Shown: positions 44,156 through 61,804 of the stretch, piece by piece
How positions within the stretch are numbered: the stretch's first letter is position 1
How the letters are laid out: each line of letters begins with the position of its first letter
NCBI GenBank assembly: GCA_040004125.1
Contig: JBDUBL010000004.1
Coordinates: forward strand, 1 to 61,804
DNA length: 61,804 nt
Direction: 5' to 3'
Origin: Actinomycetota bacterium
Lineage (GTDB): Bacteria; Actinomycetota; UBA4738; HRBIN12
Made by a program: the position numbers and the translations under genes
Notes under the pieces: generated by a model
What the model was told of the DNA's origin: nothing
Database searches by the model: none
Seen by the model: only the letters and a program-made list of their open reading frames with translations

Positions 44156-44158
44156 GCG

Positions 44159-45778: not shown

Positions 45779-45825
45779 GGCGCTGGATCCTTCCCCTGAG
45801 TTGAGGCCCGTATCATGGACCCTGA

Positions 45826-45913
45826 CTGAACGACCAGTCAACTCACCCTCGGTGCCTACTCAGGGGTTGACGCCGCAGGTCAAACGGGTACAGTGCGTTG
45901 AACGGTGGGTCAA
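45826..45913. promoter_or_regulatory. Divergent promoter with two TGAACG-N4-GTCAA operator boxes
   Basis: CTGAACGACCAGTCAA 45826-45841 and TTGAACGGTGGGTCAA 45898-45913; TetR promoter TTGACG 45867 - N16 - TACAGT 45889. Confidence 0.6.
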
Positions 45914-45961
45914 TCCTGCCGTGGGAGCATCGTCCGGTTTGCCCCCTATTCAGGAGTGCGG

Positions 45962-46576: not shown

Positions 46577-46586
46577 GGGCGGCCGG

Positions 46587-47159: not shown

Positions 47160-47236
47160 CCCGCGGCCAAGCCCGGCTCGACATCGTCATAGTCCGGTCG
47201 TTTTCGCACATGACCATGTTCCCAGGTCGGGGTCAC
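47156..47236 (-). other. 26-aa mini-ORF or gene remnant coupled at both ends
   Basis: GTG 47236 overlaps the GcvT-family stop (GTGA); TGA 47156 overlaps the PRTase ATG (ATGA). Confidence 0.4.
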
Positions 47237-49731
47237 ACGCGCCACGTGCGAGGCTCGTCGCGGAGCCGGGAGCCGGTCGGGTCGTAGAAGGGCTCGCGAC
47301 TGAGCTTTGCGCGCACCTTCGTGCCGCGGACCTCGACCGACACGGGCAGATCGGAGGCCAAGTCGCCGTGCACCCACGCGAGCCCGACCGCCGCGCCGAG
47401 ATGGTGGCCGTAGCCACCGCTCGTGACGTAACCGATCCGTTCCTTGCCGATCACGACAGGCTCGCCGTCCCACAGCATTGCCGCCGGGTCATCGAGCTTC
47501 ACGCTGACGAGCTCGCGCTCCCTCATCGCGCCCTGCAGCTCGACCAGTGCCGCCTTGCCGACGAAGTCCTCCTTGCCGAGGCGAACCGCGAACCCGAGTC
47601 CGACCGCATAGGGATCGTCGAGTACGCCGATGTCGTGTCCCCACGAACGGAAGCCTCGCTCCAAACGCAAGCCGTCGAACGCGAACGCGCCGGCATGTCG
47701 CAGGCCGTGCCCCAAGCCGGCCGCAACGACCTTGTCATACACGTCGGCGGCGAACTCGGTCGCCACGAGGAGTTCCCACCCGAGCTCGCCGGTGAACGAG
47801 ACACGCATGGCGATCGCCTTCGCCCAGCCGAGGTCGATCTCGCGGCAGGACAGGAAGGGAAACGCCTCGTTCGATAGATCCTGGTCGGTCAGCTCTGCGA
47901 GCAGCGCGCGGCTGCTCGGCCCGGCTAGATGCAGCGTCGCGTAGCCGCCGGTCACGTCCGTGACGGTGGCACCGGGCGGCAGTCCGTTGCGCAGCAGCAT
48001 CTGGGTCCGCCGTTGGTACAGCGTTGGGGCGAGCACGAGGAACCGATCCTCGCCGAGACGCGTCACCGTGGGATCCATCTCGATGCCGCCCCGATCGTTG
48101 CACACCAACGTGTAGACCACGCGCCCGATCGCGACGTCGATGTTGGACGTGCACATGCGCTGGAGCCCGGCGAGCGCTTCGGGCCCCTGCACGATGAACT
48201 TCGCGTAGGAGGAGAGGTCATACAGCGCGACGCCTGCACGCGTGGCCCGCATCTCCTCGCCGACCGGCGCGAACCACGACGGGCGATCGAAGTCGTAGAC
48301 CCACGGCGGCTCGCTACGGGTGCCGGGCTCGAACCACGCGGCGCGATCCCAGCCGGCGGCTTCACCGACGGCTGCTCCGGCCGCCCGAAGCTGCGGCAGC
48401 AGCGGCGAGCGGCGCACCCCCCGCCCCTCGTCGGGCTGGAGCGCCGGCCAGTGCATCGCGTAGAGTCGCCCGAGCGTTTCCCGGGTCTTGTCGTGCAGCC
48501 AGGCGCGGTTGTTCGCCCAACCGCCCATCCGGGCGATGTCGACCTCGGTCAGGTCCATCGTCGGGTGGCCCTCAACGATCCATTCCGCCAGGGCCTTGCC
48601 CACACCGGGGCCGTAGATGATGCCCTGAGAGTTCAGCCCGGCCGCCACGAACAGGTTCTTCACCTCTGGGAACTCGCCGATGTGGAAGTTCGCGTCGGGC
48701 GTGAAGCTCTCGGGCGCGCGCAGGTAGTGACGGAACCCGATGTCGCGCAGCACGGGCAGGCGCTCGCGCGCGGCCGACAGCACGGGCGCGAAGTGGTCCC
48801 AGTCCTCACCGAACTCCGCGAATCCGTCGATGGGAACGTCGGCCGGAGGTTTCGGCTTGCCCTTCGGCTCGAACGCGCCGAGCACCAGCGACCCGCCATG
48901 GTGCCGCACATAGAAGGAGCCGTCGAGGTCACGCAGGATCGGGAACCGCTCCTGGGCCCCCGCGGCCGGCTCCGTCATGACCCACACATGCTCGGCCGGG
49001 TAGAGCGCGACCGAGGTGCCGGCGAGCCTGGCCAGTTCGGAGGTCCACAGCCCCGCGGCCAGGACGACGGTGTCCGCCTCGATCGTGCCCTTGTCGGTCT
49101 CGACGCCGGTCACCGTGCCGCCCGCGTCTTTCCGGAACCCCGTCACCGTCACACCGAACGCGAACACGGCGCCCCGGTCGTGCGCTCCTTTGGCCAGCGC
49201 CAGCGTCGCGTCACCGGGGTTGACGGTCGCGTCGGTCGGCACGACGACCGCCCCCACGAGATCGTCCACCGTCGCGATCGGCCACCAGTCCGTGACCTGC
49301 GCCGGCTCCAGGACGCGGGCCTCCACGCCGAATTCGCGATGCATGTCGGCGCTGGCGAGCAACTCCTGCATGCGCCCCGGCGTGCGCGCGACAGTCAGCG
49401 ACCCCACGCGACGGAACCCGGTCTCGACGCCGGTCTCGGCCGGCAGCGACGCATAGAGGGAGGCATTGATGCGCGAGAGCTCGGTCAGTGCATGCGTCCC
49501 GCGGACTTGCGAGACGAGCCCGGCCGCGTGCCACGTCGTGCCGCCGGTCAGGCGCGTGCGTTCCACCACGAGCACGTCGGTGACGCCGAGCTTCGTGAGG
49601 TGATACGCGATCGAGGACCCGATGATCCCACCGCCGACGACCACGACGTGGGCGCGCGCGGGTGGCTCCGAGATCGGCTCCAGGATCGAGGAGTCGAGGT
49701 CGCGATTGGCCAGTCGCTCCGGGATCGTCAC
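47233..49731 (-). CDS. GcvT-family dimethylglycine/sarcosine dehydrogenase-like flavoprotein
   Basis: VVGGGIIG, GGTTWHAAGL (flavinylation His), APESFTPD, THF-binding and GcvT C-terminal domains; GTGA overlap with the arginase gene. Confidence 0.9.
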   Translation of the reverse strand: MTIPERLANRDLDSSILEPISEPPARAHVVVVGGGIIGSSIAYHLTKLGVTDVLVVERTRLTGGTTWHAAGLVSQVRGTHALTELSRINASLYASLPAETGVETGFRRVGSLTVARTPGRMQELLASADMHREFGVEARVLEPAQVTDWWPIATVDDLVGAVVVPTDATVNPGDATLALAKGAHDRGAVFAFGVTVTGFRKDAGGTVTGVETDKGTIEADTVVLAAGLWTSELARLAGTSVALYPAEHVWVMTEPAAGAQERFPILRDLDGSFYVRHHGGSLVLGAFEPKGKPKPPADVPIDGFAEFGEDWDHFAPVLSAARERLPVLRDIGFRHYLRAPESFTPDANFHIGEFPEVKNLFVAAGLNSQGIIYGPGVGKALAEWIVEGHPTMDLTEVDIARMGGWANNRAWLHDKTRETLGRLYAMHWPALQPDEGRGVRRSPLLPQLRAAGAAVGEAAGWDRAAWFEPGTRSEPPWVYDFDRPSWFAPVGEEMRATRAGVALYDLSSYAKFIVQGPEALAGLQRMCTSNIDVAIGRVVYTLVCNDRGGIEMDPTVTRLGEDRFLVLAPTLYQRRTQMLLRNGLPPGATVTDVTGGYATLHLAGPSSRALLAELTDQDLSNEAFPFLSCREIDLGWAKAIAMRVSFTGELGWELLVATEFAADVYDKVVAAGLGHGLRHAGAFAFDGLRLERGFRSWGHDIGVLDDPYAVGLGFAVRLGKEDFVGKAALVELQGAMRERELVSVKLDDPAAMLWDGEPVVIGKERIGYVTSGGYGHHLGAAVGLAWVHGDLASDLPVSVEVRGTKVRAKLSREPFYDPTGSRLRDEPRTWRV

Positions 49732-50621
49732 GGCAGCGCTCCCGCGTCGCCGATCGCGGTCCGGAGCACATCGGCGAGCGCCCGGCCGCATGCGCCGTCC
49801 GGGTCCTTGTCCGGGTTGTAGCAGCCGACGGAGAAGCCGACGAGCGCCGGCGCTCGAAGCAGGGGCGTGAGCAGATCGGTCAACTGGGTCAGATCGAGCC
49901 CGTTGGGATCGAGGTAGTCGGTGGCCGGAAACACCAGCTCGTCGAGAACGTCGACGTCGAGATGCACCCAGAGTCGGTCGGGATCCTGGCCGACACGGTC
50001 GGCAACCTGTTGACCGATCACGGCGGCGCCGTCGCGACGAACCTGGTCCGCATCGACGAACGTGAGTCCGGGGATCTCGTCGGGATGCGGGTGTCCGTGC
50101 GTGAGCGCCTCGTCGAGGTCGCGGGGCCCGAGCAGCGTCACGTCTTCGGGCCGCGACACTTCGCCGGCAGCATCGACCCACGTCGCGGGACCCCTCCCCA
50201 GGATCACCGAGATCGGCATGTCGGCCGCCTCGCCCGTCGGTGACGTCTCACCGTCGTACAGGTCGAGATGTCCGTCGAGGTACGCCAACCCGACCCGGCC
50301 GAAGGTGCGCTGGGCCCCGGCGAGTGCGCCGGGTAACAAGGCGCAGCAGCCACCCACGACGAACACCACAGCGCCTTGGGAGGTGAGGTCGGCAACGACG
50401 TCGGCCACCCGCCGGGTCGTATCCAGCACATCGTCGATGGCGATCACCCCCGATGCCGGATCACGGACGTCTCCGCGGATCCGCGCGTCGATGTCACCGC
50501 CGTCGGTTCGCCAGGGATCGTCCGCACGCGTGAAGGCGCGGAATGCCTGGGGCGCGTGCTCCGTGCCACCCGAGCGCCCGACCGAATCGATCGGGACGCC
50601 GAGCAGCGTGAACGTCGTCAT
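49728..50621 (-). CDS. Arginase/ureohydrolase family protein (atypical site)
   Basis: DGHLD and HLDVDVLD metal motifs; GGCC where GGDH is expected. Confidence 0.8.
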   Translation of the reverse strand: MTTFTLLGVPIDSVGRSGGTEHAPQAFRAFTRADDPWRTDGGDIDARIRGDVRDPASGVIAIDDVLDTTRRVADVVADLTSQGAVVFVVGGCCALLPGALAGAQRTFGRVGLAYLDGHLDLYDGETSPTGEAADMPISVILGRGPATWVDAAGEVSRPEDVTLLGPRDLDEALTHGHPHPDEIPGLTFVDADQVRRDGAAVIGQQVADRVGQDPDRLWVHLDVDVLDELVFPATDYLDPNGLDLTQLTDLLTPLLRAPALVGFSVGCYNPDKDPDGACGRALADVLRTAIGDAGALP

Positions 50622-50653
50622 GGCGCGCAAGGATAGGGCATCAGCCCGCGCGA

Positions 50654-51802
50654 CTACCCGAGGAGCGCGCGGCCCATCTGCTTGCGGTACCGCTCGTTGA
50701 AGTCGTACAGGAACCGGTCCTGGCGCGGATAGACACCGGTGGTGAACGCGCGCGACCCGACGCCCGTCTGCGCGCGCTGACAGATCTCCCAATCCTGCTT
50801 GGAGATCATGTCCCACAGCTCCACGACCGGTTCCGGCTTGAACAGCGCCGGGTCTGAGATCGTCTCGGGTCGGAACAGGTACTCGGACACGACGGTCGTG
50901 TGCCCCGGCCCGTTCGGGTAACCGATGTAGTACATGACGCAGTCCGGGTGGAGATTCAACAGTAGGTTCGGGAACTGGTAGGCCCCGAAATACATCGAGT
51001 AGTCCTCGGGCTGGAGGTCGGGGAACTTCGGCAGCTCGGACTCGCCGCTGATCGTGAAGCTGGTGGCGCCGTCCTTCATCCAGTTGCCGTCGTCGCGCGT
51101 TTCCTCGTCCCAGACCTCGCCGAAGCGAAAGAGCGGCACCACCTGCACCAGTTCGGGGTGCACCTGCGGACAGTGCAGACACTCGTTGTAGTTCTCCACA
51201 ACGATCTTCCAGTTCGCGGCGACCTCATAGACGATCCGCACGCCGACGCGGAGCTCGTCGAGCTTGAACCGGTCGAACATCGTCACGCTCTCCGCGCCCC
51301 CGTTGAGGAACTCCATGAACGAGCTCGGCTCGCTCGCCAGGCTCGCAAAGATGAAGCCGCCGTAGGTCTCGACCGCGAACCCGTGCAGCGGGTAATCGCC
51401 CCGGTCGAACAGCTCGCCTTCCTTCACGTTCGGCGAACCGATCAGCCGGCCGTTGAGGTCGTAGGCCCACGCGTGATAGGGGCACACGAACGCCTTCCGC
51501 ACGTTGCCCGCGGCCGGCTCGTCATCGAGGAACTTCGTGCCGCGATGCCTGCACACGTTGTAGAAGCCGTGCAGCTCTCCGTGGTCGTTGCGCACGAGGA
51601 AGACCGACTCCCCGGCAAGGTCCCGCACGATGTAGTCGCCGGGGTTGGGCAACTCCTCGGTGCGCCCGAGGCAGACCCAGTCGCCCCACCAGACTTTCTC
51701 GCGCTCCTCGTCGTAGATCGACGGCTCGGTGTAGTCGGCGCCCGTCAGGGTCGGGCGGGGCTTCCACTCGGTTTCGTCGTAGCGGATGGGTTGGGTCTGC
51801 AT
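50654..51802 (-). CDS. Rieske non-heme iron oxygenase alpha subunit (GbcA/Stc2/choline monooxygenase-like)
   Basis: CRHRG...CPYHAW Rieske ligands; NWKIVVENYNECLHCPQVHP; QDWEIC; GAGGAG RBS. Confidence 0.9.
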   Translation of the reverse strand: MQTQPIRYDETEWKPRPTLTGADYTEPSIYDEEREKVWWGDWVCLGRTEELPNPGDYIVRDLAGESVFLVRNDHGELHGFYNVCRHRGTKFLDDEPAAGNVRKAFVCPYHAWAYDLNGRLIGSPNVKEGELFDRGDYPLHGFAVETYGGFIFASLASEPSSFMEFLNGGAESVTMFDRFKLDELRVGVRIVYEVAANWKIVVENYNECLHCPQVHPELVQVVPLFRFGEVWDEETRDDGNWMKDGATSFTISGESELPKFPDLQPEDYSMYFGAYQFPNLLLNLHPDCVMYYIGYPNGPGHTTVVSEYLFRPETISDPALFKPEPVVELWDMISKQDWEICQRAQTGVGSRAFTTGVYPRQDRFLYDFNERYRKQMGRALLG

Positions 51803-51880
51803 CGTCGGCTCCTCGTCGGTCTCAGCCCAGGATAAGCGGTCGATCGCCACCTCCGGTAGACGGCCGATACGATATCCCGC

Positions 51881-52645
51881 ATGCTCGAGGTCGCCGGATT
51901 CAACATCACGCCGGTGAAGTCCACGGCGTTGCAGCGGCCCGATGTGCTGGACCTCCGTCGGGAAGGAGCCGTGGGTGACCGGCGGTTCCTGTTCATGCGA
52001 GACGATGGTTCACGCCTGTCCGGCATCTCCAAAGCATCCTTGATGCCGATCCAGGCGACCTACGACGCGGTGGGGGAACGCCTGACGCTGAGCTTCGCCG
52101 ACGGCGGGAGGGCGCAAGGCGATGCGCGGCCGACCGGTCCGGCCAAGACCGTCGCGCTCTATGACCGGACGATCTCGGTGCATGCGGTCGACGAGGGGCT
52201 GACGCGAGCGGTCCGCGCGCAGATCGGAGACGACACCGTCACGCTGGCTCGCGCCGACGAGCCGGATTCCGCGGGGGGCATCCATCGCGCCTCGATCCTG
52301 TCGCGCGCATCGATCCGGGACGTTGGACGACGCACCGGCGACGAGGCCCTCGATCCACGGCGGTTCCGGATGCTGATCGAGGTGGAGGGATGCCACCCGT
52401 TTGAGGAGGACACGTGGGAGGGCAAGCGTGTGCGCTTCGGCGATGCCGTCCTGCGGATCGGCGACCGGATGCCCCGCTGCGTCATGACCACCCTGGACCC
52501 CGACACCGGGGTGCAGAACGCGAGGGTCTTGGACGCGCTCGCGCAGCACCGAAAGACGGGCGAGAAGCTGTACCTCGGCATGTACGCGGAGGTCGAGCGG
52601 CCCGGCCTGATCCGGCGTGGCGACCCGGTGGCGGTGCTTGCCTAG
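51881..52645 (+). CDS. MOSC domain (mARC/YcbX-like) molybdoprotein
   Basis: TPVKS, GDRRF, DPRRFR, RCVMTT; ATG 7 nt after TACGAT. Confidence 0.85.
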   Translation: MLEVAGFNITPVKSTALQRPDVLDLRREGAVGDRRFLFMRDDGSRLSGISKASLMPIQATYDAVGERLTLSFADGGRAQGDARPTGPAKTVALYDRTISVHAVDEGLTRAVRAQIGDDTVTLARADEPDSAGGIHRASILSRASIRDVGRRTGDEALDPRRFRMLIEVEGCHPFEEDTWEGKRVRFGDAVLRIGDRMPRCVMTTLDPDTGVQNARVLDALAQHRKTGEKLYLGMYAEVERPGLIRRGDPVAVLA

Positions 52646-53067
52646 CCGGTCGTGAACGCGCGGAGCTCGGCGGCGTGCTCCTCGTAGTGTTCGAAGGTCT
52701 CGCCGGTGAACTCCTCGACCGCCGCATCGGTGAGCGTCGGCAAGGCTCGAAGCCCGGTACGCGCGCGCTCCCGGTTGTGCTCGGACCGCACGATGATCTC
52801 GTCCCAACTCATGCCGCGGCCATCTTCGATCACCTTGTCGTTGACGTCGTCCCAGTCCTGGTCTTCGAGCGTCTCACCGCGTGCGATCCGCTCGAGGGCG
52901 TCGCCCACGTAGCCCGCCCAGTAGCCGCAGTGCCAGACGAGATCCTGCGTCGACCAACCGGGGACGACCCCTTCCCGGTCACGCTGATCGTCGGGCACCG
53001 CCGCGAACGCATCCACGAACGCCAGCCACGCCTGATCCTCTCGCTGCAACAGTTCCTCGGTGTTCAT
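52642..53067 (-). CDS. DinB / maleylpyruvate-isomerase-like four-helix bundle protein
   Basis: GWSTQDLVWHC and EHYEEH motifs; GAGGGGG RBS. Confidence 0.75.
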   Translation of the reverse strand: MNTEELLQREDQAWLAFVDAFAAVPDDQRDREGVVPGWSTQDLVWHCGYWAGYVGDALERIARGETLEDQDWDDVNDKVIEDGRGMSWDEIIVRSEHNRERARTGLRALPTLTDAAVEEFTGETFEHYEEHAAELRAFTTG

Positions 53068-53246
53068 CGTGCCCCCTCGATCCCGGAGCCTCGACGATAC
53101 CTGCCTCGACGCGGGGCGGGATCGGGGCGTCAGATGACGCCGATCCTGGTCACTGCGCTCGCGATCGTGGTTCAGGAGTCGGCGCGACTGCCGTTCATCC
53201 AGCGCCTCAGTCGCCACCGCGCAGCCGCAGATCCGAGCAACGAGTC

Positions 53247-54587
53247 CTAGTCCGCGATCGCGCCGATGCAGTCCTCGAAAGCCTCCAGCGTGCGGTCGAC
53301 GTCCTCGTCGGTGTGTTGCGCGGACATCGAGAACTCCTCGAACCAGGCCGAGCCCATCGGGATCACGCCGCGGTTCAGCATGCCGAACCAGTAGTCGTCC
53401 CAGCGCGCCGTGTCGTTCTTGCACGCCTCGCGGAAGGTGTTCGGCTGCTCGTCGAGTCCGAAGAACAACCCACCAAGCGTGTTCACTTGCGTGACGTGCG
53501 CGGTGACACCCTTGTCCTTGAACACCTCGCGCATCCCGTCGGCGAGCCGCGTCGTGAGCCGCGTCATCTCCTTGTAGGTGTCGTCGGTCATCACCTTTGT
53601 CAGACACGCGAGCCCCGCGGCCATCGCCAGAGGGTTCGCGTTGTACGTGCCGAAGTGGACCATCGACCCGAGCGGCGTGACGTGTTCCATCAGCTCGCGA
53701 CGCCCGCCGAACGCGCCGACCGGCACGCCGCCACCGATCGCCTTTGCCAGCGTGACGAGGTCGCCCTTGACTCCCCAGTACTCGGTCGCCCCGCCCGGAG
53801 CGATCCGGCAGCCGAGCTTGACCTCGTCCATGATCAGCACCGAGCCCTTGGCGGTGCACAGCGCACGCACCGCCTCGAGGTAGCCGGGCAACGGTGGGAT
53901 CACACCGCCGTTGGTCATCGCCGGTTCGATGATCACCCCGGCGACATCGCCGTCGTGCTCGTCGAAGGCGCGCTGCATCATGTCGATGTCGTTGAACGAC
54001 ACCACCGTCGTGTACTCCGTCGAGGCGGGCAGCAGCCCGGCCGAATCGGCGGTGGCGTTCGGGTGGGTGTCGGGGCCGGCCGCATCGGCCGGGGCGCCGC
54101 CGATCGAGACCAAGAGGTGGTCGGTCCCCCCGTGATACTGGCCCTCGATCTTCACGATCGTCTTGCGCCCGGTCGCGGCGCGCGCCAGCCGGATCGCGGT
54201 CTGGGTCGCCTCCACGCCCGACTGCGTGAAGCGGATCATGTCGATCGAGCCCGGGTAGCGACGGATCACTTCTTCGGCCAGCATGGCGGCGAGCTCGGTC
54301 GGCATGCCGTAGAGCGTGCCGTGCGCGGCCTGCTTCTGGATCGCCTCGACGATGATCGGGTTCGCGTGTCCGGCGACCATCGCCGCGTAGCACAGCGAGT
54401 AGTCGATGTACTCGTTGCCGTCGAGGTCCCAGACGCGCGAACCCTTCGAGTCGCCCACGTACAACGGGTAGGGCGGCTTGAACTGGATCGCGCTGCCGAC
54501 GCCACCGGGGATCACCTTGGCGGCCCGCTCCCAGGCGACCTTCCCCTTCGGGGTCCTGCGCTCGTACTCCGCAACGCCGTCGGTCAT
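53247..54587 (-). CDS. Class III PLP aminotransferase, HemL-like paralog
   Basis: WDLDGNEYIDY, FTQSGVEA, MDEVK, LAKAIGGGVPVGAFGG, GTYNANPL. Confidence 0.85.
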   Translation of the reverse strand: MTDGVAEYERRTPKGKVAWERAAKVIPGGVGSAIQFKPPYPLYVGDSKGSRVWDLDGNEYIDYSLCYAAMVAGHANPIIVEAIQKQAAHGTLYGMPTELAAMLAEEVIRRYPGSIDMIRFTQSGVEATQTAIRLARAATGRKTIVKIEGQYHGGTDHLLVSIGGAPADAAGPDTHPNATADSAGLLPASTEYTTVVSFNDIDMMQRAFDEHDGDVAGVIIEPAMTNGGVIPPLPGYLEAVRALCTAKGSVLIMDEVKLGCRIAPGGATEYWGVKGDLVTLAKAIGGGVPVGAFGGRRELMEHVTPLGSMVHFGTYNANPLAMAAGLACLTKVMTDDTYKEMTRLTTRLADGMREVFKDKGVTAHVTQVNTLGGLFFGLDEQPNTFREACKNDTARWDDYWFGMLNRGVIPMGSAWFEEFSMSAQHTDEDVDRTLEAFEDCIGAIAD

Positions 54588-54641
54588 GGTCGCTTCCCTC
54601 CGTCGGGTGGTGGAGGCGTTCCGGGGCCTCCGGATCTGCCG

Positions 54642-54694
54642 AGTCTAGGTGTCGTTTCTCACTGGGAACAAGCAGCTCTCGTATCGTGAGAACC
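54642..54694 (-). promoter_or_regulatory. Promoter with TCTCAC/GTGAGA operator array (copy B)
   Basis: GGTTCTCACGATACGAGAGCTGC-TTGTTC-N18-TAGACT; gapless 32/53 match to 59565-59617. Confidence 0.75.
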
Positions 54695-54696
54695 GT

Positions 54697-55872
54697 TCAC
54701 CAGCGCACCGAGAGCGTCGCAGGGCCTCGATACTCCCAGCCGCGAAACACCGGTGCGTGGTCGGGGTCGAGACGCAACCGCGGGAAACGCTCGAGCAGCA
54801 GCGACAGGCCGGTCCGCATCTGTATCCGAGCGAGTTGATGGCCCACGCAAAAATGCGGCCCGAACCCGAACGCGGCGTTCGCGTGCTTCGGTCGTTCGAT
54901 GTCGAAGACGTCGGCGGCGTCGCCCCACACGGTCTCGTCGCGATTCGCCGACGGGATCATCAACCCGACGCCTTCACCAGGCGGGATCGTTATGCCCGCA
55001 ACGGTCGCCTCGCGACCCGCGACCCGCCCCTGCGTCCCGATCGGCGAGACCCAGCGCAAGCCCTCGTCGACCGCCCGGCGGACCAGCGTCTGTGGGTCCG
55101 CCCGCACGGCCGCGAGCTGGTCGGGATGCTCGAGCAAGCCGACAACCGTCGAGCCAAGCCCGTGCGCCGGCTCCTGCAAGCCGCCGATCAACGCCACCTT
55201 GAGCGTCGGGAGGAAGCCGCGCATTCGCGTATCGAGGTCGCCGTCCTCTGCATGCAGCATCTCGGAGAGCATCGAGTCGTCGGGCTCCGCGAGCAGCCGC
55301 GCCAGACGCGGGCGGAGCACCGCGTCGACCTCGGCGGCCGTCGCGTCCGCGATGGATTGTTTCTCGGGATCGTTCTCGTAGTTCGACGTACCTCCCGCGA
55401 TATCGTGGAACCACCTGCGCAGCGTCGGTGCGTCGAGATGCTCGGGCAGGCCGATCACGCGGGCGAGCGACAGCACGGCCAGCGGTTCGCAATACGCGTC
55501 CATCAGATCGGCCGTGCCCTCGGCGGCAAGTCCGTCCAGCAGCTCGGTCGCGATGGCGGCGACGACATCGGGCGCCGTCTGCTCGATCCGGCGTGGGCGG
55601 AGCGTGCGTTCCATCGGCTCGCGCCAGTGTTCCTGTTCGTTGCCGTCGACCGTGAGCACGGTCGCGCCGCCGCAGGTGCGGTCTAGCGGCGAGCCAGCGA
55701 ACCCCGCTGGGAAACGCGCCGGATCCTCGGCCGCCTCGACCAGATCCTGCCACCGGGTGACGAACCAGAGGCCGACCGAAGGGACCCACGCGATGGGCGC
55801 CTCGCGCCGAAGACGTGCATAGACGGGGTAGGGGTCGCGCTCGAGCTCTTCGACGGTCACGCTCTCGGTCAC
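54697..55872 (-). CDS. Cytochrome P450, GcoA/CYP255-like
   Basis: EGLRW (ExxR), FGFGPHFCVG heme Cys, I-helix GGLQEPAH, N-terminal VTVEELERDPY, C-terminal RGWEYRGP. Confidence 0.9.
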   Translation of the reverse strand: MTESVTVEELERDPYPVYARLRREAPIAWVPSVGLWFVTRWQDLVEAAEDPARFPAGFAGSPLDRTCGGATVLTVDGNEQEHWREPMERTLRPRRIEQTAPDVVAAIATELLDGLAAEGTADLMDAYCEPLAVLSLARVIGLPEHLDAPTLRRWFHDIAGGTSNYENDPEKQSIADATAAEVDAVLRPRLARLLAEPDDSMLSEMLHAEDGDLDTRMRGFLPTLKVALIGGLQEPAHGLGSTVVGLLEHPDQLAAVRADPQTLVRRAVDEGLRWVSPIGTQGRVAGREATVAGITIPPGEGVGLMIPSANRDETVWGDAADVFDIERPKHANAAFGFGPHFCVGHQLARIQMRTGLSLLLERFPRLRLDPDHAPVFRGWEYRGPATLSVRW

Positions 55873-58184
55873 GCCGATGCGCGACTCCCACGGGCGACGG
55901 CGTCGAGCACGCGTTCCGGTGTGATCGGAAGGGTCGTGGGTCGCGCGCCGACCGCATCGGCGATCGCCGCCGGGATCACCGCGATCGGCGGCCCGATCGG
56001 CGGCTCGCCGATCCCGCGGGCGCCGAACGGTCCGAGGCCCTCCCCCGACTCCAGGATCACGGTCTCGATGTCGGGCACGTCGGTCGCCGTGGGGATCATG
56101 TACTGGAACAACCCCGGCGTGAGGTTCACCCCCTCCTGCACGACGACGTCCTCCAGCAGCGCCTGCCCGAGACCCTGGACGACGGCGCCCGAGATCTGAC
56201 CCTCGACGCTCATCGGGTTGATCGCCCGCCCGACGTCGTGGGCCGCGATGTAGCGGAGGATCCGGACCTCGCCGGTATCCAGATCGACCTCCACATCGGC
56301 GAGGTGCGTGCCAAACGTGAAGTCCGGGAAGATGCGGTCGCCGTCGAGGTCGCGCGTAACCTCGGTTCCCTTGGGACCGAAGAAGGTGCCGAGTGCTTCG
56401 ATCGGCACGTTGCGGCGGCGGCAGGCCTGCAGCGCCGTGAGCAGCGGGGTCGCACCGTCGGGCCCGACGATCTCGCTCGGTTCGATGCGCAGCGAGTCGA
56501 TCGGCTGGCCGGTGTCGGCCGCCACGGCGCCGAGCACCTGGTCGCGCAACAGCACGGCGGCCTCGTACGTCGCGTTGCCCGACATCAGCAGCTGGCGTGT
56601 CGCGGTGGTGGTGCCCGCCAGCGGCGTCAACGCGGAGTCGCCGAAGTGCACGCTGATCCGGTCCATGTCGACGGCGAGGATCTCGCTCGCGATCTGCCCC
56701 AGCGACGAGGCCTGTCCTCCGCCGATGTCGGGCACGCCGCAGCGCACCGTCAACGACCCGTCCATCTCAAAGCCGATCCAGGCCGCCGAGCTGTCGTTCA
56801 GCCAGACGAGCCTCCCGTAGGACTGCATGTTCGAGGCGATTGCACGACCGACCGCTTTGCGGGGGCCACTGGGGACTGGTTTGTCGCCGGCGCGCTCCCG
56901 CACGGCGTCGATCGTCTGGGCGAGTTGCACCTCGGTGATGATCTCCTGGCCGACCGGCAGACGGTCGCCACGCGCCAGGGCGTTGCGCTTGCGGATCTCG
57001 CCGGGGTCGATCCCGAGCCTGCGCGACACCTCGTCGATCTGCGACTCGTAGCCCAGCACCATCTGCATCCCGCCGAAGCCGCGGAACGCCGAGGTTGGCG
57101 GGTTGTTCGTGTAGGCGGTCTTGGCGCGGATCCGCACGTTGGGCACGCGGTAGGGGCCGCACGCGTGCACGGTCGAGTACAGCAGCACCAACGCGGAAAG
57201 GTAGGCATAGGCGCCGGCGTCGGACACGATCTCGATGTCGTGTGCGAGCAGCGTCCCCTCGGCGTCGGCGGCGGTGCGATAGCGCATCACGTTGCGGTGG
57301 CGCTTGGCGCGGGCCAGGAGCGACTCGTTGCGGGTCCACAGCATCCGCACGGGCTTCCGGGTGCGGTGCACGGCGATCGCCAGATACGGCTCGACCGTCA
57401 TGTCCTCTTTGCCGCCGAAGCCGCCGCCCACATAGGGCGCGATCACCCGTACCTTGGCATCGGGCACACCCAGGATCTTCGCGACGTCGCGGTAATGCTC
57501 GACCACCTGGGTGGCCACCCGCAGGTTCAACACGCCGTCGTCGTCGAGCCACCCGACGCCGGCCTCGGGCTCGAGGTAGGCGTGATCGACGAACTGCGTG
57601 CGATAGGTCTCCTCGACGACCACGGCGGCGCCGGCGAACGCCTCGTCGACGTCGCCGCGGTCGATGTGCCACTCAGCCAGCAGGTTGCCGCCCTCGTGCA
57701 CCGACGGTGCGTCATCGGCGAGCGCAGCCTCAGGATCGCTCACGACCGGCATGTCTTCGTACTCGACCTCAACCAGCTCGCAGGCGATCGCGAGCGCGTC
57801 CTCGGTCTCGGCGATCACCAGCGCGATCGGCTCGCCATGGAACCGCACCCGGTCGGTGGCGAGCACCTGCATGCTCGCCTGCAACGCGCCGACTGCGATC
57901 GTCTGGCCGGGCACGTCGACGCGGATCTCGTTGTTCGGCACGTCCTCGCCGAGCAGCACGGAGATCACCCCTGGGACCGCGACCGCCGCGGTGACGTCGC
58001 GCCGGGTCAGCCGGGCGCTCGGCACCTGGGAGCGAACGAGCCGCGCGTGCAACATGCCCGCGAACGCCAGATCGCCGGCGTAGCGCGTCGTGCCGGCGAT
58101 CTTCTCGGCCTGATCGTGGCGCGCGAGCGGCTGGTGGACGACCCGAAGCTCTTCGATCTTGGAGGTGTGGATCTCACCGGTCAT
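55869..58184 (-). CDS. Xanthine dehydrogenase family molybdopterin-binding subunit
   Basis: GGGFGGK, AFRGFG, GQISG, GIGEPP; ATGA overlaps at both ends. Confidence 0.92.
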   Translation of the reverse strand: MTGEIHTSKIEELRVVHQPLARHDQAEKIAGTTRYAGDLAFAGMLHARLVRSQVPSARLTRRDVTAAVAVPGVISVLLGEDVPNNEIRVDVPGQTIAVGALQASMQVLATDRVRFHGEPIALVIAETEDALAIACELVEVEYEDMPVVSDPEAALADDAPSVHEGGNLLAEWHIDRGDVDEAFAGAAVVVEETYRTQFVDHAYLEPEAGVGWLDDDGVLNLRVATQVVEHYRDVAKILGVPDAKVRVIAPYVGGGFGGKEDMTVEPYLAIAVHRTRKPVRMLWTRNESLLARAKRHRNVMRYRTAADAEGTLLAHDIEIVSDAGAYAYLSALVLLYSTVHACGPYRVPNVRIRAKTAYTNNPPTSAFRGFGGMQMVLGYESQIDEVSRRLGIDPGEIRKRNALARGDRLPVGQEIITEVQLAQTIDAVRERAGDKPVPSGPRKAVGRAIASNMQSYGRLVWLNDSSAAWIGFEMDGSLTVRCGVPDIGGGQASSLGQIASEILAVDMDRISVHFGDSALTPLAGTTTATRQLLMSGNATYEAAVLLRDQVLGAVAADTGQPIDSLRIEPSEIVGPDGATPLLTALQACRRRNVPIEALGTFFGPKGTEVTRDLDGDRIFPDFTFGTHLADVEVDLDTGEVRILRYIAAHDVGRAINPMSVEGQISGAVVQGLGQALLEDVVVQEGVNLTPGLFQYMIPTATDVPDIETVILESGEGLGPFGARGIGEPPIGPPIAVIPAAIADAVGARPTTLPITPERVLDAVARGSRASA

Positions 58185-58669
58185 CGCGCGATCCCCTGCG
58201 CCTGCGCGTCTTCGATCGCATCCACGATGTCCGTGTATCCGGTGCAGCGGCACAGATTGCCGTGCAGTTGCTCTCGGATGTCGGCGCGGGACAGCGGCTC
58301 GGTCGCGTCGCGCAGCATCGCGTGCGCGCAGAGCAACATGCCGGGGGTGCAGAAGCCGCACTGTGCGGCGTGATGCTCGTGGAAGCGACGTTGCAGCGGG
58401 CCGAGGGAGCCGTCGGGCTCGCAGAGCCCGGCGGCGGTCGTGATCGCGGCGCCGTCGACCTGGGCCGCGAGCACGATACAGGCGCTCGCGGGCTCGCCGT
58501 CGACCAGAACCGTGCAGGCGCCGCAGACACCTTCGCCGCAGCCGTACTTCGGGTCGGTGACGTCGGCGAGATCGCGCAGCCAGCGCAGCAAGGACACGTG
58601 CCCGCCGGTCGTGCGGGTCGTGGGGGCACCGTTCACGGTGAGCGTGACCGTCACGTCGGTAGCGGTCAT
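58181..58669 (-). CDS. Xanthine dehydrogenase family 2Fe-2S subunit (CoxS-like)
   Basis: GCGEGVCGAC, QCGFCTPG, LCRCTG. Confidence 0.92.
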   Translation of the reverse strand: MTATDVTVTLTVNGAPTTRTTGGHVSLLRWLRDLADVTDPKYGCGEGVCGACTVLVDGEPASACIVLAAQVDGAAITTAAGLCEPDGSLGPLQRRFHEHHAAQCGFCTPGMLLCAHAMLRDATEPLSRADIREQLHGNLCRCTGYTDIVDAIEDAQAQGIAR

Positions 58670-59526
58670 GCGGCGACCCCGCGTGTGACGGCGTCGGTCA
58701 GCGCCCGCACTGCGAGCACCCGGGCGAGGTGCCGACGGTGCTCGGCGGTCGCGCTCACATCCGAAACCGGATCGATGCCCTCGATCGGCCCGATCCGATC
58801 CGCCAGCGTCGTCGCGTCGGCTCCCTCCACCGCGATCTCCACGGCGCCCAGCCGCTTCGGGCGTTCGGCGACGCCGGCGAGACCGAGCCGCGACTCGACG
58901 ACGCGCCCGTCTGCGACGCGGACCAGCGCGGCCGCCGCGCAGAGCGCGAAGTCGCCCCGGCGCCGCGAGACCTCGGCGAATCCCCAGCCCCACCCCGGGC
59001 CGAGCACCGGCACCTGCACCCGTTCGAGCAGCTCATTTTCGGCCAGCGACGTCGTGAAGTAGCTCTCGTGGAAATCGGTCGCCGCGACGGTTCGTGTCGT
59101 GGTGCCGTCGGTCAGGTCGTAGGTTGCGCCGGCGACGACCATCGCAAGCGGCAGCTCGGCCGCCGGATCCGAATGCGCCAACGAACCGCCCAGGGTCCCG
59201 CGCACACGGATCCGCGACGAGCCGACCCATCGAGCGGCCGCGGCCACCAGTGGCTGGCCGGCCGCGACGATCGGGTCGCGCTCGAGCTCGGCGTGCGTCC
59301 TCAACGCGCCGATCGAAAGGTATCCGTCGCGCTGCGCGATCTCGCTCGCCCCAGCGATATGCGTGACGTCGATCAGCGCCTCGAGGTCCAGCACGCCCAG
59401 GTTCATCATCGGCAGGAGGCTCTGCCCGCCGGCGAGGACCTTGGCGCTGCCGGCACCCTGGCGCAGCATCGCGGCCGCGTCGCCGAACGACGCGGCTCTC
59501 TCGTATCGGAACGGCTTCACGAACAC
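58666..59526 (-). CDS. Xanthine dehydrogenase family FAD subunit (CoxM-like)
   Basis: LAGGQSL, IRVRGTLGGSLAHSDPAAELP, RRRGDFA. Confidence 0.92.
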   Translation of the reverse strand: MFVKPFRYERAASFGDAAAMLRQGAGSAKVLAGGQSLLPMMNLGVLDLEALIDVTHIAGASEIAQRDGYLSIGALRTHAELERDPIVAAGQPLVAAAARWVGSSRIRVRGTLGGSLAHSDPAAELPLAMVVAGATYDLTDGTTTRTVAATDFHESYFTTSLAENELLERVQVPVLGPGWGWGFAEVSRRRGDFALCAAAALVRVADGRVVESRLGLAGVAERPKRLGAVEIAVEGADATTLADRIGPIEGIDPVSDVSATAEHRRHLARVLAVRALTDAVTRGVAA

Positions 59527-59564
59527 GCTCGTCCCCCATGTTCCTCGGCCGGCCGCGCGAGCGG

Positions 59565-59617
59565 ATGATAGAGATGCTTTCTCACCAGGCTCAACCGCAT
59601 CTCACGACGTGAGAAGC
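59565..59617 (-). promoter_or_regulatory. Promoter with TCTCAC/GTGAGA operator array (copy A)
   Basis: GCTTCTCACGTCGTGAGATGCGG-TTGAGC-N18-TATCAT; perfect TCTCAC-GTC-GTGAGA palindrome. Confidence 0.75.
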
Positions 59618-59620
59618 GGT

Positions 59621-60727
59621 CTACACGGCGAGTGGAGTCGCCTGCATACCGGTCGCGGCCGCGACGCCTTCGTTCGTGAGGGCGCCGTCCCACGTGTTCA
59701 CGCCCAGCGCCAGCGCCGGGTCCTCGTGCACGGCCTGCTGGATGCCGGCGCCCGCGATCGCCAACACATACGGCAGCGTCACGTTCGTCAGCGCGTACGT
59801 CGAGGTGCGCGGCACCGCGCCGGGCATGTTGCCGACGCAGTAGTGCACGACGCCATCCACCACATAAACCGGATCCGCGTGTGTTGTGACGTGCGACGTC
59901 TCGAAGCAGCCGCCCTGGTCGATCGAGATGTCGACGAGCACCGCGCCGGGCTGCATCGCACGCACCTGTTCGGCGCTGACGAGGTGCGGAGCTTTCGCGC
60001 CGGGCACCAGCACCGCGCCAACCACCAGATCGGCACGCAGCACCAGGTCCTCGATCGCCAACCGAGACGACATGACGGTCTGGATCCGCCCGCGCCAGAT
60101 CCGGTCGATCTCGCGCAAACGGTCGACGTTCTTATCCACGACGACCACCTCGGCCTGCATCCCCGCCGCGATCTCGGCGGCGTTCCAGCCCGCCATGCCA
60201 CCGCCGAGGACAACCACCGTCGCGGGTGCCACGCCACTGGCACCGCCCATCAGCACGCCTCGGCCGCCTTGCGGTCGCTCCAGGTATTTGGCGCCTTCCT
60301 GCGGAGCCATCCGGCCCGCGATCTCCGACATCGGCGCGAGCAGCGGGAGTCTGCCGTCGGGCAGCTGCACCGTCTCGTAGGCCACGGCGCGCACGCGACG
60401 CTCCGTGAGGAACCGCGTCAACCGTTCGTCGGCGGCCAGGTGCAGATAGGTGAACAGCACGTGGTCGGAGCGGAACCGCTCGTACTCCTCGGGCTGCGGT
60501 TCCTTGACCTTCACGATCAGATCAGCCGCCGCGAACACCGCATCGGCGTCGGCCCCGATCGATGCGCCGGCGGTCACGTAGCGATCGTCGGGTATCGCCG
60601 AGCCGAGGCCGGCGCCGGCCTGCACGATGACCGCGTGCCCAGCGTGCGTCAGTTCGCGAACGCCTTCGGGGGTGGCCGCCACCCGGTACTCGTGGTTCTT
60701 CACCTCGGTCGGGATCCCGATCCGCAT
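59621..60727 (-). CDS. ald: Alanine dehydrogenase
   Basis: IGIPTEVKNHEYRV, KVKEP, LFTYLHLA, PMSEIAGR, GAVLVPGA, DQGGCFETS, NMPGAVP. Confidence 0.95.
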   Translation of the reverse strand: MRIGIPTEVKNHEYRVAATPEGVRELTHAGHAVIVQAGAGLGSAIPDDRYVTAGASIGADADAVFAAADLIVKVKEPQPEEYERFRSDHVLFTYLHLAADERLTRFLTERRVRAVAYETVQLPDGRLPLLAPMSEIAGRMAPQEGAKYLERPQGGRGVLMGGASGVAPATVVVLGGGMAGWNAAEIAAGMQAEVVVVDKNVDRLREIDRIWRGRIQTVMSSRLAIEDLVLRADLVVGAVLVPGAKAPHLVSAEQVRAMQPGAVLVDISIDQGGCFETSHVTTHADPVYVVDGVVHYCVGNMPGAVPRTSTYALTNVTLPYVLAIAGAGIQQAVHEDPALALGVNTWDGALTNEGVAAATGMQATPLAV

Positions 60728-60730
60728 CGG

Positions 60731-61804
60731 CTACCTCATCTCGTCGAGCGCGGCCCCGAGGCCGGCGGCCAGTTCGTCCACCTCGTCGTCGGTCAACGTC
60801 AACGGCGGCGAGATCTGGATCGCGCCGGTCGCCAGCGTGCGCGTCATGATGCCGTTGGCGCGGCACGCCGGCACGACCCTGCCGACCAGACCTGCGTCGG
60901 CGGCGAGCCGCTCGGGGTCGAGTTGCACCGCCGCCAGCACCCCCGTGCCTGCGCGAACCTCGCTGACCAGGTCGTGATCGGCGAGGGGGCGAAGCCCCTC
61001 GGCGAGGTGCGCCTCCAGCTCGACGGCGCGAGCGAGGATGTCGTCGTTCACCATGATGTCGAGGTTCGCAAGCGCCGCCGCGGCGACCGCGGCGTGCCCC
61101 GAGTACGTGTAGCCGTGGCGGAACATGCCCGCTCCTTCGGCGAAGAACGGCCGCCACACGCTCGGAGCCACGAGCACGGCGCCCAGCGGCAGGTACCCGC
61201 TCGTGATGCCCTTGGCGCAGGTGACGAGGTCGGGATCGAGGTCCCACCGGGTGCTCGCGAACCAGTCGCCGGTCCGCCCGAACCCAGTGATCACCTCGTC
61301 GGCCACGAACAGCACGCCGGTCTCGCGACACACCGCGCGCGCCTGTTCCAGATAACCGGGCGGTGGGGCGTAGACCCCGCCTGCACCGATCACCGGCTCA
61401 CAGAAGAACGCCGCGACGCGCTCGGCGCCCAGTCGCTCGATCGTCGCACGCAACGCGTCTGCGTCGTCCCAGGGCACCTCCTCGACGTCGGGCAGCAGCT
61501 GCCCGTAGCCGACGGCGTTCGGGGCGATGCCGGCCAGGGACGTGCCGGCGATATGCATGCCGTGGTAGGCGCGCTCGCGACGCAGCAAGACCGTCCGATC
61601 CGGCTGACCGACGAGGTCCCAGTAGCGGCGCACCATCTTGGTCGCGGTGTCGATCGAGTCGGACCCACCGCTGGTCAGGAATACCTTCGCGTCGGCCATC
61701 GGCGCGATCCCGGCGACCCGGTCGGCCAGTGCCGACACCGCCGGGTTGGTCAGATCCTGGAAGGTGGAATACGACTCCAGCGCGCGCATCTGGTCGGCGA
61801 CCGC
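60731..61804 (-). CDS. Class III (omega-amino acid/polyamine-type) aminotransferase, 5' end beyond the window
   Basis: SGGSDSID, AYHG, EPVIGAGG, DEVITGFGRTG, AKGITSGY, HGYTYSGH; frame stays open to the window edge. Confidence 0.9.
   Translation of the reverse strand, partial: AVADQMRALESYSTFQDLTNPAVSALADRVAGIAPMADAKVFLTSGGSDSIDTATKMVRRYWDLVGQPDRTVLLRRERAYHGMHIAGTSLAGIAPNAVGYGQLLPDVEEVPWDDADALRATIERLGAERVAAFFCEPVIGAGGVYAPPPGYLEQARAVCRETGVLFVADEVITGFGRTGDWFASTRWDLDPDLVTCAKGITSGYLPLGAVLVAPSVWRPFFAEGAGMFRHGYTYSGHAAVAAAALANLDIMVNDDILARAVELEAHLAEGLRPLADHDLVSEVRAGTGVLAAVQLDPERLAADAGLVGRVVPACRANGIMTRTLATGAIQISPPLTLTDDEVDELAAGLGAALDEMR

What the first reader, a model, noticed from the sequence alone, without database searches (positions are those of the whole stretch)
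54642..59617. Two internal promoters share a gapless 53-bp architecture: signature of an unnamed regulon
The minus-strand regions upstream of the XDH-P450 operon (59565-59617) and of the HemL-like aminotransferase (54642-54694) align with no gaps at 32/53 nt: TTCTCACG-N4-GAGA-N5-TTG(-35)-N2-CC-N2-GTGAGAAA-N6-C-TAnnnT(-10). This is a TCTCAC-N3-GTGAGA palindrome just upstream of -35 plus a third GTGAGA half-site 20 bp (two helical turns) downstream, between -35 and -10. It differs from the TetR boxes at 45.8 kb, and I do not recognise it as a known motif. It implies a second regulator, not in this window, co-controlling the molybdoenzyme, P450 and aminotransferase.
Basis: partly seen in the sequence, partly recalled or inferred. 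Interest (0 to 1): 0.75.

Follow-up and report, generated by a model that had tools for sequence, protein, structure and literature searches.

The report
IclR-type operators on two internal promoters
The two look-alike stretches are real, conserved promoters, each sitting inside a 37-bp binding site of the kind used by IclR-family regulators; in related genomes such a regulator is encoded just past the end of this contig, so this is an ordinary local on/off switch for an amine-degrading gene cluster in an uncultured soil actinomycete.

Summary
The two minus-strand stretches align without gaps at 32/53. TTCTCAC-N23-GTGAGAA occurs only at these two places in the 2.14-Mb assembly.

The architecture is conserved upstream of the orthologous coxM-like and HemL-like aminotransferase genes in 12 other genomes of the genus and in more distant MAGs. 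Forty-seven unique modules share one register: palindrome P1 (TTCTCRY-N3-RYGAGAA), N3, pseudo-palindrome P2, N8, then the -10 hexamer TAnnnT.

P1 and P2 centres are 20 bp apart. This is the published IclR-family group-1 motif (GKTYCRY-W3-4-RYGRAMC) in tandem, tetramer-type spacing.

In relatives, an IclR-family gene lies in a divergent operon a few kb upstream of the window's cluster, behind a module of the same design. It is present in 10 of 38 genus genomes, all of which carry the motif. In this assembly that region is an unassembled gap.

Verdict: an uncharacterised, autoregulated local IclR regulon (3-4 transcription units, amine or omega-amino-acid catabolism). Whether the regulator represses or activates, and where transcription starts, remain untested.

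The parts
59565..59615 (-). Promoter-operator module A, upstream of the coxM-like gene. Layout: P1 TTCTCAC-gtc-GTGAGAT (59615-59599), linker gcg, P2 GTTGAGC-ctg-GTGAGAA (59595-59579), N8, -10 TATCAT (59570-59565). The -35 hexamer TTGAGC (59594-59589) lies inside the left half of P2.
   Evidence: TTGAGC-18-TATCAT, 9/12 match to consensus. Conserved in orthologous position in G030, G036, G024, G021, G019, G027, G011, G017 and G033.
54642..54692 (-). Promoter-operator module B, upstream of the HemL-like class-III aminotransferase. Layout: P1 TTCTCAC-gat-ACGAGAG (54692-54676), linker ctg, P2 CTTGTTC-cca-GTGAGAA (54672-54656), N8, -10 TAGACT (54647-54642). The -35 hexamer TTGTTC is at 54671-54666.
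   Evidence: Conserved in orthologous position in G036, G024, G021, G030, G031, G011, G013, G017, G027, G003 and G033.
60731..61804 (-). Omega-aminotransferase (class III), cut at its N-terminus by the contig end. It is the last visible gene of the upstream unit, which in relatives reads amidohydrolase-AT1-ald.
   Evidence: 74% identity to G019 AT1, residues 60-415.
59621..60727 (-). Alanine dehydrogenase. Its stop codon lies 5 nt upstream of P1 of module A.
   Evidence: TIGR00518, 516 bits, above the 392 cutoff.
58666..59526 (-). coxM-like FAD subunit of the xanthine-dehydrogenase-family enzyme. First gene downstream of module A.
58181..58669 (-). coxS-like 2Fe-2S subunit. Its ATG overlaps the coxM stop codon.
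   Evidence: The translation shows the CGxGxCGAC and CGFCTPG motifs.
55869..58184 (-). coxL-like molybdopterin subunit.
54697..55872 (-). Cytochrome P450, overlapping the coxL stop codon by 4 nt. Its stop codon lies 4 nt upstream of P1 of module B.
53247..54587 (-). HemL-like class-III aminotransferase. First gene downstream of module B.

Best explanation
Each stretch is a sigma-70-type promoter built into a 37-bp operator for an IclR-family regulator.

**Operator layout.** The operator has two 17-bp units, each with 7-3-7 half-sites, joined by 3 bp. Their centres are 20 bp apart, so both lie on one face of the helix.
- P1 is a good palindrome, TTCTCRY-N3-RYGAGAA, centred near -49.
- P2 is centred near -29. 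Its right half is the conserved GYGAGAA. Its left half is occupied by the -35 hexamer.
- The -10 hexamer follows P2 after exactly 8 nt.

**Regulator.** In related genomes the regulator is a 280-295-aa IclR-family protein. It lies in a divergent operon (ALDH-IclR-SDR-binding protein-permeases) a few kb upstream of the window's cluster. A module of the same design sits in that divergent region, so the regulator controls itself. In this assembly that stretch falls in a gap beyond the contig end.

**Inferred mechanism.** A tetramer (dimer of dimers) binds P1 tightly. It then places its second dimer over the -35 hexamer and the promoter spacer. This most likely blocks RNA polymerase until a pathway amine or aldehyde releases the regulator.

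**Shown versus inferred.**
- Shown: the motif, its fixed register, its conservation, and its co-occurrence and adjacency with the IclR gene.
- Inferred: binding by that protein, tetramer stoichiometry, the sign of regulation, the effector, and the transcription start sites.
For: **Uniqueness and conservation**
- The exact core occurs only at A and B in the genome, with 0 expected by chance.
- A sequence profile of the module finds strong hits (E<1e-6) in 13 of 38 genomes of the genus. These are typically two per genome about 5 kb apart, at the orthologous coxM and aminotransferase promoters, plus a third class before a PotD-like ABC transporter.

**Fixed register**
- 47 unique modules share the register P1-N3-P2-N8-TAnnnT.
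- TAnnnT sits at offset 45 from the P1 start in 50 of 230 oriented relaxed-P1 matches. Unrelated offsets have 2 or fewer; the other raised counts (offsets 24-25 and 44) are the P2-register and 1-nt-slip equivalents.

**Link to the IclR gene**
- The IclR gene is present in 10 of 38 genus genomes, and all 10 carry the motif.
- The three motif-positive genomes without it are 52-80% complete.
- None of the 25 motif-negative genomes has it.
- It is an IclR-family protein (NCBIfam and PDB hits).
- The ALDH|amidohydrolase divergent region next to it carries ATTTCAC-N3-GTGAAAT or TTCTCAC-N3-GTGGAAA in the same register.
- Across 27 loci fetched through IclR orthologues, 26-100% identical, the palindrome occurs 31 times against 1 for the reversed control in 441 kb. 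It lies upstream of the IclR operon in most loci whose IclR is at least 63% identical.
- In loci that lack the ALDH gene, the operator sits directly in front of the IclR gene.

**Fit to the family**
- PMC8222616 gives the IclR group-1 consensus GKTYCRY-W3-4-RYGRAMC.
- 94 orthologous groups have tandem sites 18-22 nt apart, attributed to tetramers. Extra direct half-sites are reported for PcaU, PobR and HmgR. The family typically autoregulates and controls adjacent operons.

**Other candidates**
- The second IclR paralogue nearby has no such motif at its own promoter.
Against: - The IclR orthologue is not found in this genome's assembly. The best tblastn hit is 36% identical, so for this organism the regulator is inferred from relatives and an assembly gap.
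- Co-occurrence is partly trivial, because the regulator is part of the same conserved gene cluster.
- There is no binding, transcription-start or expression evidence.
- The P1 palindrome alone is weakly specific genome-wide: about 2.3 hits per IclR-positive genome, 1.0 per IclR-negative genome, and 0.45 for the control.
- P1 deviates from the published consensus. Position 3 is C rather than T in most sites, and the spacer is not A/T-rich.
- The invariant register across four paralogous promoter classes is more typical of activators than of simple repressors.
- The autoregulatory module lacks a good -35 hexamer.
Confidence: 0.8

Rival explanations
1. Same operator and same IclR regulator, but it acts as an activator or dual regulator, as PcaR, PcaU and PobR do. 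Bound at -49 and -29, it would recruit or remodel RNA polymerase when the effector is present, rather than simply blocking it.
For: - The register is invariant relative to the -10 hexamer in all four promoter classes and 47 modules.
- The autoregulatory module replaces the -35 hexamer with a regulator half-site.
- The family includes activators and dual regulators (PMC8222616).
Against: - Promoters A and C have fair -35 and -10 hexamers of their own. A scores 9/12.
- P2 overlaps the -35 hexamer and the spacer, which is a blocking position.
- Read towards the amidohydrolase gene, the operator lies downstream of a plausible -10 hexamer (my reading of the sequence).
Confidence: 0.25
2. The boxes are bound by a different transcription factor: the second IclR paralogue on contig C42, the BetI-like TetR, or a regulator encoded elsewhere.
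For: - The cluster IclR orthologue is missing from this assembly.
- Co-occurrence cannot separate genes of one conserved cluster.
Against: - The other IclR has no such motif at its own promoter.
- The motif follows the cluster IclR into loci with rearranged gene order and sits directly before it when the ALDH gene is absent.
- The motif type and spacing are those of the IclR family.
Confidence: 0.07
3. The inverted repeats form an RNA or DNA hairpin in read-through transcripts, acting as a processing site, stabiliser or attenuator rather than a protein site.
For: TTCTCAC and GTGAGAA are complementary, and the sites lie in intergenic gaps of a co-directional gene array.
Against: - The variable half-site positions 6 and 7 show no compensatory change: 20/47 Watson-Crick pairs against permuted means of 22.6 and 24.4.
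- Conserved -35 and -10 hexamers sit inside and behind the element at fixed spacing.
- There is no Rfam hit.
- The same element occurs in a divergent promoter region.
Confidence: 0.03
4. The resemblance is only shared ancestry, or chance similarity, between two promoters, with no regulator involved.
For: 32/53 is barely above the genome-wide tail of gapless scores.
Against: - The boxes, and not the sequence between them, are conserved across genomes whose cluster IclR proteins are only 63-77% identical to the reference.
- The boxes recur at unrelated promoters.
Confidence: 0.02

Closest known systems
IclR-family group-1 operators, WTT-11-AAW / GTT-11-AAC subgroups, in tandem arrangement (Suvorova & Gelfand 2021, PMC8222616)
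   Same: - 7-3-7 palindrome with the core YCRY-N3-RYGR.
- The autoregulatory site ATTTCAC-CCA-GTGAAAT fits WTTYCRY-(3-nt spacer)-RYGRAAW at every half-site position.
- The variant GTTCCGC-TGG-ATGAAAC fits GKTYCRY-(3-nt spacer)-RYGRAMC at every half-site position.
- Two sites 20 bp centre to centre.
- The regulator gene is adjacent and appears to control itself and 2-4 neighbouring units.
   Different: - Most sites here have C at half-site position 3 (TTCTCRY).
- The spacers are G/C-rich rather than A/T-rich.
- P2 is a hybrid in which one half-site is the -35 hexamer.
- A string search of that paper's supplementary tables returned only other regulator groups with related motifs, and none with this regulator's HTH sequence.
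PcaU / PobR (Acinetobacter) and HmgR three-repeat operators
   Same: A palindrome plus an additional direct-repeat half-site that belongs to the binding site, as cited in PMC8222616.
   Different: - Their half-site consensus is different (GTTCGA- or GTCCGA-type).
- The regulator here scores 145 bits on TIGR02431 against a cutoff of 285, so it is not a member of that subfamily.
- The pathway is amine catabolism, not aromatic catabolism.
NdgR/LtbR and a Mycobacterium/Rhodococcus IclR group with TCTCA-type sites
   Same: - Actinobacterial IclR regulators.
- Sites such as aaATctCACtataTGagATta and tTTCTCAcATTcTGgGAAG.
- Often in tandem 21 nt apart (supplement of PMC8222616).
   Different: - The DNA-binding helices are different.
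- The target genes are different (amino-acid biosynthesis and others).
- Orthology was not tested, but the HTH sequences printed in the supplement differ clearly from this regulator.
TtgV and IclR tetramer-operator complexes
   Same: A dimer-of-dimers covering about 40 bp that overlaps promoter elements. This is a family property as summarised in PMC8222616. TtgV is a weak PDB hit (2xrn).
   Different: Only a distant sequence relationship.

Membership tests
IclR-family operator (group 1) | Palindrome of two 7-nt half-sites with a 3-4-nt spacer matching GKTYCRY-W3-4-RYGRAMC | tested here: met
   P1 is TTCTCRY-N3-RYGAGAA in 47 modules. The core YCRY/RYGR is invariant or nearly so. Deviations are C at position 3 and a spacer that is not A/T-rich. 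The variants ATTTCAC-CCA-GTGAAAT and GTTCCGC-TGG-ATGAAAC fit the half-site consensus fully. The consensus is taken from PMC8222616.
IclR-family operator (group 1) | Tandem sites with centres 18-22 nt apart (tetramer binding) | tested here: met
   P1 and P2 centres are exactly 20 bp apart in all 47 modules.
IclR-family operator (group 1) | An IclR-family regulator gene adjacent to the sites, with a site at its own promoter | tested here: inconclusive
   Met in relatives. In the window's own genome the region is not assembled and no orthologue is found.
IclR-family operator (group 1) | Direct, sequence-specific binding by the regulator | not testable with these tools
   Needs a gel-shift, footprinting or ChIP experiment.
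IclR protein family (the candidate regulator in relatives) | N-terminal winged HTH plus C-terminal IclR effector domain, about 250-290 aa | tested here: met
   Full-length matches to IclR-family NCBIfam models (BhcR, PcaR/PcaU/PobR, IclR, KdgR, AllR) and to IclR-family PDB chains such as 3r4k, 1mkm and 2o99.
Named IclR regulators (BhcR, PcaR/PcaU/PobR, IclR, KdgR, AllR) | Score above the curated equivalog or subfamily cutoff | tested here: not met
   Scores against cutoffs: 171/350, 145/285, 127/380, 112/275 and 98/406 bits.
Sigma-70-type promoter | -35 and -10 hexamers separated by 16-18 bp | tested here: met
   Module A: TTGAGC-18-TATCAT, 9/12. Module B: TTGTTC-18-TAGACT, below the scan threshold, but both hexamers are conserved in orthologues.
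Sigma-70-type promoter | A transcription start about 6-8 nt downstream of the -10 hexamer | not testable with these tools

The most novel reading that the evidence does not exclude
The module may not be a simple repressor site. It could be a rigid promoter-operator cassette in which one half-site of the second palindrome doubles as the -35 hexamer. The register to the -10 hexamer is invariant across four unrelated promoter classes and 47 instances. That would fit an IclR tetramer acting as a -35-embedded switch, repressing without ligand and helping RNA polymerase with it. Alternatively, the cassette may spread within the cluster by duplication.
Probability: 0.2. Interest if true: 0.5.

Novelty: new member of a known kind. 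Interest (0 to 1): 0.33.

Why it matters
It assigns a regulator, an operator and 3-4 transcription units to a conserved but uncharacterised gene cluster. The cluster comprises an amidohydrolase, an omega-aminotransferase, alanine dehydrogenase, an XDH-family enzyme, a P450, a HemL-like aminotransferase, aldehyde dehydrogenases and a PotD-like transporter. It is found in an uncultured soil actinomycete lineage.

This delimits which genes work together. It also offers a ready-made sensor-promoter pair for finding the inducing amine. It does not reveal a new regulatory principle.

Tried and rejected
- **Rfam scan of 44000-61804:** no RNA family.
- **RNA/DNA hairpin reading:** rejected because the variable stem positions do not covary and promoter hexamers lie inside the element.
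- **P1-only pattern as a genome-wide discriminator:** too weak. IclR-negative genomes have about 1 hit each against 0.45 for the control. Regulon membership must rest on the full module.
- **Extra palindrome hits in the own genome** (C35:283, C96:364 and others): these lie inside paralogous coding sequence or lack the -35, site-3 and -10 elements. The 31/53 match on C107 is chance.
- **Second IclR paralogue on C42 as the regulator:** no such motif at its own promoter.
- **Search for the IclR orthologue in the own genome:** absent. The whole divergent operon and the amidohydrolase gene are missing between the ends of contigs C42 and C64.
- **Conserved hairpin in the leader of promoter B as a riboregulator:** the fold is not better than shuffles (z = -0.68).
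- **Literature search for the box strings together with IclR:** nothing relevant.
Full report
**1. The observation**

Read on the minus strand, 59617-59565 and 54694-54642 align without gaps at 32 of 53 positions. The matches fall in blocks:
- TTCTCAC
- N3
- (G/A)(T/C)GAGA
- N5
- TTGnnC
- N3
- GTGAGAA
- N8
- TAnnnT

The exact core TTCTCAC-N23-GTGAGAA occurs twice in the window and in none of 100 shuffles. It occurs nowhere else in the 2.14-Mb, 108-contig assembly, of which the window is the whole contig C64.

The overall 32/53 is the best gapless match to site A in the genome. It is only just above the tail, where 31 occurs once and 30 three times. The case for significance therefore rests on the block structure and on conservation.

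A consensus scan calls TTGAGC-18-TATCAT at 59594-59565 a promoter-like site with 9/12 matches. Site B (TTGTTC-18-TAGACT) falls below that scan's threshold.

**2. Gene context**

All genes run on the minus strand:

| Order | Gene | Coordinates |
|---|---|---|
| 1 | Omega-aminotransferase, cut by the contig end | 60731-61804 |
| 2 | Alanine dehydrogenase | 59621-60727 |
| - | Module A | 59565-59615 |
| 3 | coxM-like | 58666-59526 |
| 4 | coxS-like | 58181-58669 |
| 5 | coxL-like | 55869-58184 |
| 6 | P450 | 54697-55872 |
| - | Module B | 54642-54692 |
| 7 | HemL-like aminotransferase | 53247-54587 |

Each module starts 4-5 nt after the stop codon of the preceding gene. No Rfam family matches the region.

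**3. Conservation**

The exact core recurs in three other genomes of the genus and in none of 24 genomes from other families of the order. The reversed-pattern control gave 0.

A sequence-only profile of the 64-nt module gives strong hits (E<1e-6) in 13 of 38 genus genomes. There are usually two per genome about 5 kb apart, at the orthologous coxM and aminotransferase promoters. A third class lies between a PotD-like ABC transporter operon and a divergent P450-Rieske gene.

Across these sites the boxes are kept while the sequence between them drifts:
- Half-sites vary only as TTCTC(A/G)(C/T) and (A/G)(C/T)GAGA(A).
- The -35 hexamer stays TTGnnC.
- The -10 hexamer stays TAtCaT or TAGACT.

**4. 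A four-half-site operator in a fixed register**

Relaxing P1 and collecting all instances gives 47 unique modules. They come from the own genome, the genus relatives and 16 more distant loci. All share one register:
- P1 (7-3-7)
- 3 bp
- P2 (7-3-7)
- 8 bp
- TAnnnT

TAnnnT lies at offset 45 from the start of P1 in 50 of 230 oriented P1 matches. Unrelated offsets show 2 or fewer. The only other raised counts are 13 and 4 at offsets 25 and 24, where P2 itself was matched as P1, and 7 at offset 44, a 1-nt slip.

In the autoregulatory module of relatives, the left half of P2 is a good half-site (RTYTCGG or CTCTCGA) and the right half is weaker.

P1 and P2 centres are 20 bp apart. Assuming a start 7 nt after the -10 hexamer, P1 is centred near -49 and P2 near -29. 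This positioning is an inference.

**5. Not a hairpin**

The two variable positions of the half-site do not covary between the arms. Watson-Crick pairs number 20/47 at each, against permuted means of 22.6 and 24.4. Promoter hexamers sit inside the element, and the same element occurs in a divergent promoter region. The pattern is that of a protein site.

**6. The regulator**

In relatives with long contigs, the cluster continues upstream of the window's end. The co-directional unit is amidohydrolase-aminotransferase-ald. Divergent from it lies ALDH, then a 280-295-aa protein, SDR, a binding protein and permeases.

That protein is IclR-family. It gives full-length hits to the BhcR, PcaR/PcaU/PobR, IclR, KdgR and AllR models, all below their curated cutoffs. 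It also matches IclR-family PDB chains.

Evidence linking it to the motif:
- It is found in 10 of 38 genus genomes, and all 10 are motif-positive.
- The three motif-positive genomes without it are 52-80% complete.
- None of the 25 motif-negative genomes has it.
- The divergent region next to it carries ATTTCAC-CCA-GTGAAAT or TTCTCAC-CAG-GTGGAAA in the same module register.
- Fetching loci through an alignment of the regulator gave 27 loci, mostly uncultured Actinomycetes MAGs.
- In those loci the palindrome occurs 31 times against 1 for the reversed control in 441 kb. It lies upstream of the IclR operon in most loci whose IclR is at least 63% identical.
- Where the ALDH gene is absent, the operator sits directly before the IclR gene. 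Further modules precede coxM and the second aminotransferase even where gene order differs.
- A second IclR paralogue about 13 kb away, present on contig C42 of the own genome, has no such motif at its promoter.

**7. The own genome**

No orthologue of the regulator is present. The best tblastn hit is 36% identical.

Contig C42 carries the genes that in relatives lie just beyond the divergent operon. C64 ends inside the upstream aminotransferase. Everything between them is missing: permeases, binding protein, SDR, IclR, ALDH and amidohydrolase.

This reads as an assembly gap of roughly 8 kb. The regulator's presence in this organism is therefore an inference.

**8. Comparison with what is known**

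Suvorova & Gelfand (PMC8222616) report the following for the IclR family:
- A group-1 consensus GKTYCRY-W3-4-RYGRAMC, with subgroups WTT-11-AAW and GTT-11-AAC.
- Tandem sites 18-22 nt centre to centre in 94 orthologous groups, attributed to tetramers binding one face of the DNA.
- Additional direct half-sites for PcaU, PobR and HmgR.
- Regulators that usually control themselves and one or two adjacent operons, acting as repressors, activators or both.

Their supplement lists other actinobacterial IclR groups with TCTCA-type sites in 21-nt tandems. The string search returned none with this regulator's DNA-binding sequence.

The motif type and architecture are therefore known. This regulator and its regulon are not described in what I could search.

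**9. Function of the regulon**

| Component | Evidence |
|---|---|
| Omega-aminotransferase next to alanine dehydrogenase | Family-level hits below curated cutoffs for the aminotransferase; TIGR00518 at 516 bits against a 392 cutoff for ald |
| CoA-acylating methylmalonate-semialdehyde dehydrogenase, downstream in relatives | 696 bits against a 448 cutoff |
| Betaine/aminobutyraldehyde-type aldehyde dehydrogenases | |
| PotD-like transporter | |

Together these point to catabolism of an amine or omega-amino acid. The substrate and the effector are unknown.

**10. Mechanism and its uncertainty**

The most likely reading is repression. P2 covers the -35 hexamer and the spacer. Promoters A and C have fair hexamers of their own. 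Read towards the amidohydrolase gene, the operator lies downstream of a plausible -10 hexamer.

Against this, the register is invariant in four promoter classes, and the autoregulatory module lacks a good -35 hexamer. Both would suit an activator or dual regulator of the PcaR type. I put repression at about 60-65% given the IclR reading.

**11. Verdict**

It is wrong only in taking the motif for an unknown kind.

This is a new member of a known kind, and of modest interest.

Noticed in passing
window 54596-54631 (-): The leader of promoter B carries GGAGGC-N8-GCCTCC, followed 10 nt later by the Shine-Dalgarno GGAGGG. The CCUCC arm could pair with either GGAGG. The element is kept in several relatives (G036, G024, G021, G011, G017, G031) and absent in others. 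The fold is not better than shuffles (z = -0.68).
   Followed up: partly
L041/L010 (G024:C6, about 233.7 kb), L009, L007 and most of L057-L077, just downstream of the autoregulatory operator: A conserved inverted repeat GCGGATGC-TACCAT-CCGC contains two face-to-face -10-like hexamers: TACCAT on one strand and TAGCAT on the other. This suggests overlapping divergent promoters for the IclR operon and the amidohydrolase operon, or possibly a second protein site.
   Followed up: partly
genome contigs C42 (8461 bp) and C64 (the window): Both contigs end on either side of the region that in relatives holds the ALDH-IclR-SDR-binding protein-permease operon and the amidohydrolase gene. About 8 kb of the cluster, including the regulator, is unassembled in this MAG.
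   Followed up: partly
L009 4359-4395, L010 4585-4621 (G036, G024; also G021): A small glyoxalase/VOC-like gene is inserted between ald and coxM. P1 of module A then lies inside its 3' coding end and reads GTTCCGC-TGG-ATGAAAC. This departs from TTCTCAC, but its half-sites fit the family-wide IclR consensus GKTYCRY/RYGRAMC exactly.
   Followed up: partly
L008 7169-10111 (G036:C33); also G024:C5 about 39.7 kb and G030:C48 about 4.3 kb: A third promoter class with the same module lies between a PotD-like ABC transporter operon and a divergent P450 fused to a Rieske-type domain. No copy was found in the window's own assembly.
   Followed up: partly
window 55869-55872, 58181-58184, 58666-58669: coxM, coxS, coxL and the P450 are joined by 4-nt start/stop overlaps (ATGA/GTGA type), so the XDH-family trimer and the P450 are probably translationally coupled. 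No reductase or ferredoxin gene for the P450 is visible in this unit.
   Followed up: no
genome contig C107, about 110-125 nt from one end (minus strand): TCGAACATATGTTCGA is a perfect actinobacterial LexA-type SOS box (TCGAAC-N4-GTTCGA; consensus recalled from memory). It turned up while checking a chance 31/53 match.
   Followed up: no
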